Made by a program: the position numbers and the translations under genes. From Aureispira anguillae (GTDB lineage Bacteria > Bacteroidota > Bacteroidia > Chitinophagales > Saprospiraceae), in the NCBI RefSeq assembly GCF_026000115.1, contig NZ_AP026867.1:2905716-2969715 (forward strand): a DNA stretch of 64,000 bases, in the 5' to 3' direction. Numbering within the stretch: the first letter of the stretch is position 1; each line of letters starts with the position of its first letter. The notes below the pieces were generated by a model. That model searched no databases. It was not told the DNA's origin and saw only the letters and a program-made list of their open reading frames with translations. Shown here piece after piece: positions 28,188 through 28,241 of the stretch.

Positions 28188-28241
28188 TTGAGTAAGTGTA
28201 GAACCTCATTGTATAAGTGTTGTTCTTTGTTGTGTAAGTGT
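28188..28241 (-). promoter_or_regulatory. three direct repeats TTGnnTAAGTGT at exact 21-bp phasing, a candidate regulator-binding array upstream of the 184-aa/658-aa cassette
   Basis: The repeats are tttgagTAAGTGTa (28188-), attgtaTAAGTGTt (28209-) and gttgtgTAAGTGTt (28230-). The TAAGTGT cores start at 28193, 28214 and 28235. The array lies 135-190 bp upstream of the start codon at 28054. Confidence 0.5.

What the first reader, a model, noticed from the sequence alone, without database searches (positions are those of the whole stretch)
28188..28241. Three TTGnnTAAGTGT direct repeats with exact 21-bp periodicity upstream of an uncharacterized operon
The TAAGTGT cores start at 28193, 28214 and 28235, exactly two helical turns apart, and each is preceded by TTGnn. 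Phased direct repeats spaced about 21 bp apart are the binding architecture of LytTR-family regulators (AgrA/AlgR-type) and some OmpR-type regulators. A LytTR regulator is encoded about 8 kb away in this window. The array sits 135-190 bp upstream of the 184-aa/658-aa cassette on the minus strand, and I did not see the motif anywhere else in the window.
Basis: seen in the sequence. Interest (0 to 1): 0.65.

Follow-up and report, generated by a model that had tools for sequence, protein, structure and literature searches.

The report
Triple-repeat LytTR-type activator site
Three 12-bp repeats spaced exactly two DNA turns apart form a conserved promoter element in the marine bacterium Aureispira anguillae, most likely the docking site of the neighbouring LytTR-type two-component regulator, which switches on a small operon of unknown-function genes; it is a well-supported example of a known kind of element.

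Summary
TTGnnTAAGTGT occurs three times at 28188, 28209 and 28230, exactly 21 bp apart, and nowhere else in the window. The functional reading is on the minus strand: ACACTTAnnCAA x3, then 28 nt, then a Bacteroidota sigma-A -7 box (TATCTTTG, 28159-28152), then about 93 nt to the 184-aa gene. The same layout, three repeats at 21 bp plus a 28-nt (once 29-nt) gap and TAnnTTTG, is found in 11 distinct arrays from 10 related metagenomic lineages. The repeats and the -7 box are conserved while the spacers drift. The array follows the two-component system, not the cargo genes. That system is a Y_Y_Y/LytS-type kinase at 23634-20647, directly downstream of the cassette, and a LytTR regulator at 19877-20623. 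Loci whose regulator is 57-73% identical lack the 184/658-aa genes, or all cargo, yet keep the array next to the kinase gene. Control loci with unrelated LytTR regulators have none. Published LytTR sites have the same geometry, including three-repeat cases (RcoM1, CoxC). The best reading is a LytTR-activated promoter for a variable cargo operon that ends at a terminator before the kinase gene. Binding and the transcription start are inferred, not shown. The cargo function remains unknown. This is a new member of a known kind, of moderate interest.

The parts
28230..28241 (-). Distal repeat R1, ACACTTACACAA (predicted -94 to -83)
   Evidence: Conserved in the ungapped stack of 10 arrays (mean relative entropy 1.10 bits per column, against 0.41-0.58 in the spacers).
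28209..28220 (-). Middle repeat R2, ACACTTATACAA (predicted -73 to -62)
   Evidence: 1.17 bits per column.
28188..28199 (-). Proximal repeat R3, ACACTTACTCAA (predicted -52 to -41)
   Evidence: 1.21 bits per column. Identical in the window, L001, L002, L006, L061 and one L066 array.
28152..28159 (-). Bacteroidota sigma-A -7 box, TATCTTTG (TAnnTTTG), exactly 28 nt after R3. No -33 TTTG at the expected distance.
   Evidence: TAnnTTTG lies at offset 28 in 10 of 11 arrays; the eleventh has TATTTTTA at offset 29. The consensus and its position (-12 to -5) are from PMC9723704.
28147..28147 (-). Predicted transcription start, giving a 5' UTR of about 93 nt
   Evidence: Inferred from the -7 box occupying -12 to -5. 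Not mapped experimentally.
27500..28054 (-). First cargo gene, 184 aa, no known family
   Evidence: Five homologs at 53-74% identity, with an invariant MKTKLK N-terminus.
25494..27470 (-). Second cargo gene, 658 aa, no known family; N-terminal 61-aa helical module with a replaceable body
   Evidence: The L061 variant shares only residues 1-61.
24000..25439 (-). Third cargo gene, 479-aa predicted lipoprotein, no known family
   Evidence: Homologs in L001, L002, L061, L066 and L075.
23935..23973 (-). Terminator-like hairpin plus U-run after the 479-aa gene; probable end of the regulated transcript
   Evidence: -26.1 kcal/mol, z -3.45. Analogous hairpins at the same place in L001, L002 and L063.
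20647..23634 (-). Sensor kinase: Reg_prop beta-propeller, Y_Y_Y and LytS-type His_kinase (PF06580) domains. The true start is probably the ATG at 23598.
   Evidence: Orthologs at 38-78% identity in all related loci.
19877..20623 (+). Response regulator with receiver and LytTR DNA-binding domains; the proposed binder of the repeats
   Evidence: LytTR 54.3 bits, cut-off 22.6. Ortholog group at 57-90% identity, with a clear gap down to 45% or less.

Best explanation
The three repeats are the upstream activator site of an activator-dependent sigma-A promoter. When its partner kinase is stimulated, the phosphorylated LytTR response regulator (19877-20623) binds the three ACAnTTAynCAr sites. The partner is the periplasmic beta-propeller/Y_Y_Y LytS-type kinase at 23634-20647. 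The sites all lie on one face of the helix at about -88, -67 and -46. The bound regulator recruits RNA polymerase to a promoter that has a good -7 box (TATCTTTG) but no -33 box. This drives transcription of the 184-aa, 658-aa and 479-aa genes, and the transcript ends at the hairpin at 23973-23935, before the kinase gene. Shown from sequence: the repeats, their phasing, the fixed distance to the -7 box, their conservation, and their co-occurrence with the two-component system. Inferred: the identity of the binding protein, activation rather than repression, the transcription start, and the extent of the operon.
For: (1) Geometry. Conserved 12-nt blocks (9-nt core) recur with a 21-bp period. Published LytTR sites are 9-11-nt repeats separated by 11-13 nt, for example YpdB GGCATTTCAT-N11-GGCATTTCAT (PMC4847170). 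[quoted passage not shown]
(2) Phylogenetic footprint. In 10 stacked arrays with no gaps needed, the repeats average 1.10-1.21 bits per column and the -7 box 1.15. Spacers, the 28-nt gap and the flanks average 0.34-0.58.
(3) Fixed architecture. R-9-R-9-R-28-TAnnTTTG holds in the window, L001/L061, L006, L002, L007, L009, L063, L065, L066 (second array) and L073. The first L066 array has a 29-nt gap.
(4) The array follows the two-component system, not the cargo. L073 (regulator 73% identical) has the window's flanks (desaturase, kinase, regulator, nuclease) but no cargo, and it keeps the array. L065 (59%) has no cargo and has the array before the kinase gene. L063 (64%) has an unrelated 476-aa gene behind the array. 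L066 (57%) has two arrays before two different genes.
(5) Specificity. The best three-site score is 12.7-52.9 in ortholog loci and -7.6 or lower in five control loci that carry non-orthologous LytTR or receiver proteins. There is only one array in the 64-kb window. L063, L065, L066 and L073 were not used to train the matrix.
(6) Pairing. The kinase has the PF06580 His_kinase domain and sits tail-to-tail 24 nt from the LytTR regulator gene.
(7) An independent case. A motif-only scan of 185,579 genomes found two Ferruginibacter species in which ACACTTATACAG-N9-ACACTTATACAA lies directly downstream of a Y_Y_Y kinase plus LytTR regulator pair (31-35% identity). The repeats sit 46 nt before the next gene.
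Against: No binding, transcript or expression data exist. The -7 box and the transcription start are consensus predictions. Aureispira probably encodes many LytTR regulators, and a paralog could be the binder. The rest of the A. anguillae genome could not be scanned because it is absent from the genome collection, so the regulon size is unknown. The regulator gene itself has no array upstream. Terminator-like hairpins separate the cargo from the kinase gene, so there is no evident autoregulatory loop of the kind common in LytTR systems. The related loci were found through homologs of the cargo or of the regulator, so the co-occurrence rests on about ten related lineages plus one distant case (Ferruginibacter). 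Three sites for a regulator expected to dimerise leaves the stoichiometry unexplained.
Confidence: 0.75

Rival explanations
1. The array is a genuine activator site but is bound by a different transcription factor: a paralogous LytTR regulator encoded elsewhere, or a regulator of another family such as the OmpR-type protein at 58789-59484.
For: Binding specificity cannot be read from sequence, and LytTR sites share no common consensus (PMC4847170). Only 64 kb of a 7.58-Mb genome was available.
Against: The array stays next to this particular kinase-regulator pair in every lineage examined, even when the cargo and the flanks change. The OmpR regulator has its own HisKA kinase and does not occur in the related loci. 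OmpR/PhoB-type boxes need half-sites about 10-11 bp apart, but the intervening 9 nt are not conserved.
Confidence: 0.13
2. The adjacent LytTR regulator binds the repeats but acts as a repressor or operator protein, like CoxC, and not as an activator.
For: CoxC is a LytTR protein that represses through three direct repeats (PMC11347149).
Against: The CoxC repeats overlap the -35 box. Here the proximal repeat ends at about -41, 28 nt upstream of the -7 box. The region where a -33 TTTG would lie is not conserved. That is the layout of an activator-dependent promoter.
Confidence: 0.07
3. The repeats are a chance or neutral tandem duplication with no function, or an RNA-level element such as a 3' UTR or terminator of the upstream desaturase-like gene.
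For: Many hits in the genome-wide pattern scan were plain 21-bp tandem repeats with identical spacers, so such sequences arise without regulation. The array lies between two genes on the same strand.
Against: The spacers differ within the array and drift between lineages while the repeats stay fixed. The array keeps a fixed 28-nt distance to a -7 box. The upstream gene differs between loci: desaturase in the window, L002 and L073; R2K_3 in L001; amine oxidase in L009 and L063. The region does not fold (-3.8 kcal/mol, z +0.87) and there is no Rfam match.
Confidence: 0.02

Closest known systems
AgrA sites at the Staphylococcus aureus agr P2/P3 promoters
   Same: A LytTR response regulator binds direct repeats about two helical turns apart, immediately upstream of promoters with suboptimal core elements, and activates them (PMC4227749). 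From memory, not tested here: the AgrA consensus ACAGTTAAG resembles the ACAGTTAC/ACACTTAC cores found here.
   Different: AgrA has two repeats per promoter, here there are three. AgrA uses sigma-70 -35/-10 promoters, here a Bacteroidota -7 box without a -33 box. agr P2 autoregulates the kinase and regulator genes, whereas here a terminator separates the cargo from the kinase gene. The AgrA sensor is a peptide-sensing HPK10 kinase, here a periplasmic beta-propeller/Y_Y_Y LytS-type kinase.
YpdB (and BtsR/YehT) sites of Escherichia coli, for example PyhjX GGCATTTCAT-N11-GGCATTTCAT
   Same: A LytS-type kinase pairs with a LytTR regulator. Direct repeats have a 21-bp period, binding is sequential and cooperative, and there is a single or very small regulon (PMC4847170). 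NCBIfam's best full-length match for the window regulator is BtsR, at 106 bits, below the 246-bit cut-off.
   Different: E. coli has two sites, not three. The repeat sequence is unrelated. The regulator is not an equivalog of BtsR.
RcoM1 (Paraburkholderia) and CoxC (Afipia) LytTR operators
   Same: Three direct repeats evenly spaced with 12-13-bp spacers, all needed for efficient binding (PMC11347149).
   Different: These are one-component CO sensors (heme/PAS or MHYT domains), not two-component regulators. Their motif is TTCNNGCA. The CoxC sites overlap the -35 box and repress.

Membership tests
LytTR-regulator binding site (phased direct repeats) | Direct repeats of about 8-11 nt separated by 10-13 nt (period about 20-22 bp) | tested here: met
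   Three copies with an exact 21-bp period: a 9-nt core ACAnTTAyn with a 12-nt spacer, or a 12-nt conserved block with a 9-nt spacer. The definition is from PMC4847170 and PMC11347149.
LytTR-regulator binding site (phased direct repeats) | Located just upstream of the core promoter of the regulated gene | tested here: met
   The proximal repeat ends 28 nt before a TAnnTTTG -7 box in 10 of 11 arrays, and 29 nt in the other. The promoter is a consensus prediction and the transcription start is not mapped.
LytTR-regulator binding site (phased direct repeats) | A LytTR-domain regulator is present and genetically linked | tested here: met
   The regulator carries a Pfam LytTR domain (54.3 bits). 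A LytS-type kinase is adjacent to the cassette. The array co-occurs with orthologs of the pair in all contigs long enough to show both and is absent from the control loci.
LytTR-regulator binding site (phased direct repeats) | Repeats conserved and spacers free among orthologous promoters | tested here: met
   1.10-1.21 bits per column in the repeats against 0.41-0.58 in the spacers.
LytTR-regulator binding site (phased direct repeats) | Specific binding of the LytTR domain to the repeats, and regulator-dependent transcription | not testable with these tools
   Needs EMSA, footprinting or DAP-seq, and mutant transcript analysis.
OmpR/PhoB-type response-regulator boxes | Tandem half-sites about 10-11 bp apart within each box of about 20 bp | tested here: not met
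   The columns between the 12-nt blocks are unconserved, and there is no 10-11-bp sub-repeat.
OmpR/PhoB-type response-regulator boxes | Linkage to an OmpR-family regulator | tested here: not met
   The only OmpR-type regulator in the window is 30 kb away and paired with its own HisKA kinase. None is encoded in the related loci.
Bacteroidota sigma-A promoter | -7 box TAnnTTTG | tested here: met
   TATCTTTG at 28159-28152, conserved at a fixed offset. The consensus is from PMC9723704.
Bacteroidota sigma-A promoter | -33 TTTG element (recalled from the Bacteroides/Flavobacterium promoter literature) | tested here: not met
   There is no conserved TTTG at the corresponding positions of the 28-nt gap. 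This is expected for an activator-dependent promoter.
Plain tandem repeat / satellite | The whole 21-bp unit, spacer included, is repeated | tested here: not met
   The spacers caaagaaca and tgaggttct are unrelated. Compare the true tandem arrays.

The most novel reading that the evidence does not exclude
The promoter array, a terminator, the kinase gene and the regulator gene form a conserved sensor-controlled expression site into which different cargo genes are slotted. The site can be empty (L065, L073), hold an unrelated gene (L063, L066), or hold the 184/658/479 set. The middle protein of that set keeps a 61-aa N-terminal module but swaps its body and gains an extra small ORF in L061, a layout like that of polymorphic toxins with an immunity gene. 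In a predatory, ixotrophic genus this could be a prey- or competitor-sensing switch for exchangeable effectors.
Probability: 0.2. Interest if true: 0.6.

Novelty: new member of a known kind. Interest (0 to 1): 0.4.

Why it matters
LytTR regulators are abundant in Bacteroidota. In the literature I could search, I found no defined binding site or target for one, in particular none for the class paired with periplasmic beta-propeller/Y_Y_Y sensors. This locus gives a precise, testable prediction: a consensus (ACAnTTAynCAr), three sites at a 21-bp period, a fixed 28-nt distance to the phylum-specific -7 box, a predicted transcription start, and a defined target operon. The prediction holds in about ten lineages. 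It shows how a LytTR activator could be positioned on a promoter read by the unusual Bacteroidota sigma-A. It also gives a handle on three orphan protein families of a predatory bacterium. It does not reveal a new regulatory principle.

Tried and rejected
1. Regulon search. A. anguillae itself is not in that collection. Most hits are plain 21-bp tandem repeats or lie in coding sequence. Only the Ferruginibacter loci (L010, L017, L048) were informative.
2. The metagenome-contig scan with the regulator gave one close locus, L067, which is the same contig as L075 and too short to reach the array.
3. Cargo function. Pfam, NCBIfam, PADLOC, PHROGs and the PDB sequence search gave nothing significant for the 184-, 658- and 479-aa proteins. 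AlphaFold models from the shallow alignments had mean pLDDT 45 and 44, so I did not run fold searches.
4. RNA element. No relevant Rfam match in 19000-30000; the single sub-threshold hit, eukaryotic SNORD100 at 19008-19095, lies inside the nuclease gene and is chance. The region between the desaturase stop and the array has no stable fold.
5. The sigma-70-type promoter scan was not informative for this phylum.
6. Kinase autoregulation by the array was considered and downgraded. Terminator-like hairpins precede the kinase gene in the window, L001, L002 and L063.
7. A literature search for the AgrA consensus string returned only unrelated primer sequences. The resemblance to AgrA is therefore marked as recalled, not verified.
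8. The locus of the 42%-identical regulator P0025 turned out to be an orphan regulator in an unrelated context. I used it only as a negative control.

Full report
**Observation**

The window reads TTGAGTAAGTGT (28188-28199), TTGTATAAGTGT (28209-28220) and TTGTGTAAGTGT (28230-28241), an exact 21-bp period. These are the only exact matches to TTGNNTAAGTGT on either strand of the 64 kb. One-mismatch matches (8 against 7.85 expected) and the bare heptamer (9 against 10.3 expected) are at chance level. What is unusual is the phased cluster. From the base composition I calculate about 0.25 exact matches expected per window, so three in register has a probability of roughly 1e-12. A weight-matrix scan for pairs 20-22 bp apart finds only this array (34.6 bits; next best 9.6; best of 30 shuffles 18.9). 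The spacers between copies are unrelated, so it is not a simple duplication.

**Organism and surroundings**

- The 184-aa and 658-aa proteins are 100% identical to hypothetical proteins of Aureispira anguillae (Saprospiraceae, Bacteroidota) on a 7.58-Mb contig. Type IX secretion genes in the window fit this assignment.
- All relevant genes are on the minus strand, in this order:
  - a desaturase-like gene (29134-28283);
  - the repeats;
  - the 184-aa gene (28054-27500);
  - the 658-aa gene (27470-25494);
  - a 479-aa predicted lipoprotein gene (25439-24000);
  - a 995-aa sensor kinase gene with Reg_prop, Y_Y_Y and LytS-type His_kinase domains (23634-20647).
- The LytTR response regulator gene (19877-20623, plus strand) converges on the kinase gene with a 24-nt gap.
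- The three cassette proteins match nothing in Pfam, NCBIfam, PADLOC, PHROGs or PDB sequences.

**Anatomy on the coding strand**

- Read on the minus strand, the array is ACACTTACACAA-9-ACACTTATACAA-9-ACACTTACTCAA. It is followed by 28 nt, then TATCTTTG (28159-28152), then 97 nt to the ATG.
- TAnnTTTG is the -7 box of the Bacteroidota primary sigma factor and occupies -12 to -5 (PMC9723704).
- This predicts a transcription start near 28147, a 5' UTR of about 93 nt, and repeats at -94/-83, -73/-62 and -52/-41.
- No -33 TTTG lies at the corresponding place. That is what one expects of an activator-dependent promoter.
- Downstream of the 479-aa gene there is a terminator-like hairpin with a U-run (23973-23935; -26.1 kcal/mol, z -3.45).

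**Conservation upstream of orthologous cassettes**

- The cassette is rare: five homologs of the 184-aa protein (53-74% identity) and three of the 658-aa protein among 5.8 billion clusters.
- Their contigs all carry the array upstream of the 184-aa gene.
  - L001 and L006: ACAGTTACACAA / ACACTTATACAA / ACACTTACTCAA.
  - L002: ACAGTTACACAG / ACATTTATTCAA / ACACTTACTCAA.
  - L007 and L009: more degenerate versions.
- Each array has a 21-bp period and a TAnnTTTG box exactly 28 nt after the third repeat.
- Where the contigs are long enough (L001, L002), the kinase and the LytTR regulator follow the cassette as in the window, while the upstream neighbours differ.

**The array follows the two-component system, not the cargo**

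The regulator has a distinct ortholog group at 57-90% identity, then a gap to 45% or below. The contigs of these orthologs vary in cargo but all keep the array on the kinase strand.

| Locus | Regulator identity | Cargo between array and kinase | Array |
|---|---|---|---|
| L061 | 90% | 184-aa homolog, altered middle gene, 479-aa homolog | Present |
| L073 | 73% | None; same flanks as the window (desaturase, kinase, regulator, nuclease) | ACATTTACACAA / ACATTTATTCAA / ACATCTACTCAA-28-TATATTTG, between desaturase and kinase |
| L063 | 64% | One 476-aa gene, not detectably related to the window's cargo | ACGGCTACTCAA / ACGGATATACAA / ACAGCTAATCAA-28-TACATTTG |
| L065 | 59% | None | ACAGTTACTCAA / ACACTTATACAA / ACAGATGCTCAT-28-TACTTTTG, before the kinase |
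| L066 | 57% | Two different genes | Two arrays, one before each gene |

- An ungapped stack of ten arrays gives 1.10-1.21 bits per column in the repeats and 1.15 in the -7 box. Spacers, the gap and the flanks give 0.34-0.58.
- The best three-site score is 12.7-52.9 in the ortholog loci and -7.6 or lower in five control loci with unrelated LytTR or receiver proteins.
- L063, L065, L066 and L073 were not used to build the matrix.

**An independent case**

A. anguillae is not in that collection, and most hits are plain tandem repeats or coding sequence.
- Only two loci, L017 and L048, encode a LytTR regulator nearby. Both are Ferruginibacter species.
- There, a Y_Y_Y kinase plus LytTR regulator pair (31-35% and 24-26% identical to the window's) is followed directly by ACACTTATACAG-9-ACACTTATACAA. 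The repeats lie 46 nt before a gene for a secreted protein.
- A second identical pair, L010, occurs elsewhere in the same genome as L017.
- By my reading, these sites have an xAnnTTTA element 29 nt after the proximal repeat.

**Comparison with known systems**

- LytTR sites are described as two direct (or inverse) repeats of 9-11 nt separated by 11-13 nt, without a shared consensus. The YpdB site is GGCATTTCAT-N11-GGCATTTCAT (PMC4847170).
- RcoM1 and CoxC use three evenly spaced repeats. [quoted passage not shown]
- The array here meets every sequence-level criterion of that class. What is particular is the three-site version in a two-component context, the consensus ACAnTTAynCAr, and the fixed 28-nt distance to a Bacteroidota -7 box.
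- I found no paper defining a LytTR site in Bacteroidota.
- The OmpR alternative fails. There is no conserved 10-11-bp half-site. The OmpR regulator has its own HisKA kinase and is absent from the related loci.

**Mechanism and its limits**

- The most likely mechanism is that the phosphorylated LytTR regulator occupies three same-face sites and recruits RNA polymerase to a promoter lacking a -33 box. This induces the cargo operon.
- The binder, the sign of regulation, the transcription start and the operon end are all inferred.
- Autoregulation of the kinase is not supported where cargo is present. Terminator-like hairpins precede the kinase gene in the window, L001, L002 and L063.
- By my reading of the sequences, a TACTTTTA element lies upstream of the kinase ATG in both the window and L073. 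This may be the kinase's own promoter.
- In cargo-less L065 the array-driven transcript would meet a strong terminator after only about 115-145 nt. This is unexplained: it could be an empty site, a small RNA, or a small peptide gene.
- The regulon size in A. anguillae is unknown.

**Cargo**

- Its function remains unknown. AlphaFold models had pLDDT 45 and 44, so I attempted no fold search.
- The middle gene is polymorphic. In L061 only the first 61 residues (90% identical) match the 658-aa protein. The rest is unrelated and an extra 171-aa ORF follows. This is reminiscent of polymorphic effector loci, but it is only a lead.

**Verdict**

The element is a new, well-defined member of a known kind of regulatory site. 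Interest is moderate.

Noticed in passing
window 23788-23834 (minus strand): A perfect 21-bp inverted repeat, TTAGATATTAGATCCCAATTA-agttg-TAATTGGGATCTAATATCTAA, lies between the 479-aa gene and the kinase gene (-28.5 kcal/mol, z -6.4). Its function is unknown: it could be an operator, a REP-like element or a second terminator.
   Followed up: partly
window 18599-19852 (+) and 19877-20623 (+): A DNA/RNA non-specific endonuclease gene ends 24 nt before the LytTR regulator gene. The same pairing is conserved in L002, L063, L065 and L073 (70-78% identity). This suggests a nuclease-regulator operon.
   Followed up: partly
L061 15327-16872 compared with window 25494-27470: The middle cargo gene is polymorphic. 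The L061 328-aa protein shares only its first 61 residues (90% identity) with the window's 658-aa protein. The rest is unrelated and an extra 171-aa ORF follows. The layout resembles polymorphic effector/immunity loci.
   Followed up: partly
L065 about 7620-7766 (minus strand): In this cargo-less locus the array-driven promoter is followed after about 115-145 nt by a strong terminator-like hairpin before the kinase gene. It may be an empty expression site, a small RNA, or a 22-codon ORF.
   Followed up: partly
L010, L017 (Ferruginibacter sp. GL50 MAG) and L048 (Ferruginibacter sp. P-RSF-IL-07): ACACTTATACAR-N9-ACACTTATACAA pairs lie directly downstream of a Y_Y_Y kinase plus LytTR regulator operon and upstream of paralogous secreted proteins of unknown function. 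A second identical pair precedes a putative outer-membrane protein gene elsewhere in the same MAG.
   Followed up: partly
L023, L028, L046 (Bacteroidales bacterium Pc512_bin96): Three separate intergenic sites in one MAG carry ACATTTATGCAA-caa(t/a)ttgcg-ACATTTATGCAA with a TAnnTTTG box 62 nt downstream. One precedes a 1050-aa ORF with a signal-peptide-like N-terminus that was not annotated here. They may be the regulon of another regulator.
   Followed up: no
window 8888-9301, 9529-9948, 11626-12030: Three paralogous small DUF7793 genes are clustered around a thioredoxin-like type IX secretion cargo gene.
   Followed up: no
window 49800-57425 and 111-5705: There are two giant type IX secretion substrates. 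One is 2541 aa with BNR, Reelin subrepeat-B, PKD_6 and Por_Secre_tail domains. The other is 1501 aa with a CHU_C domain and is followed by a PorP/SprF gene.
   Followed up: no
It forms a separate two-component system.
   Followed up: yes
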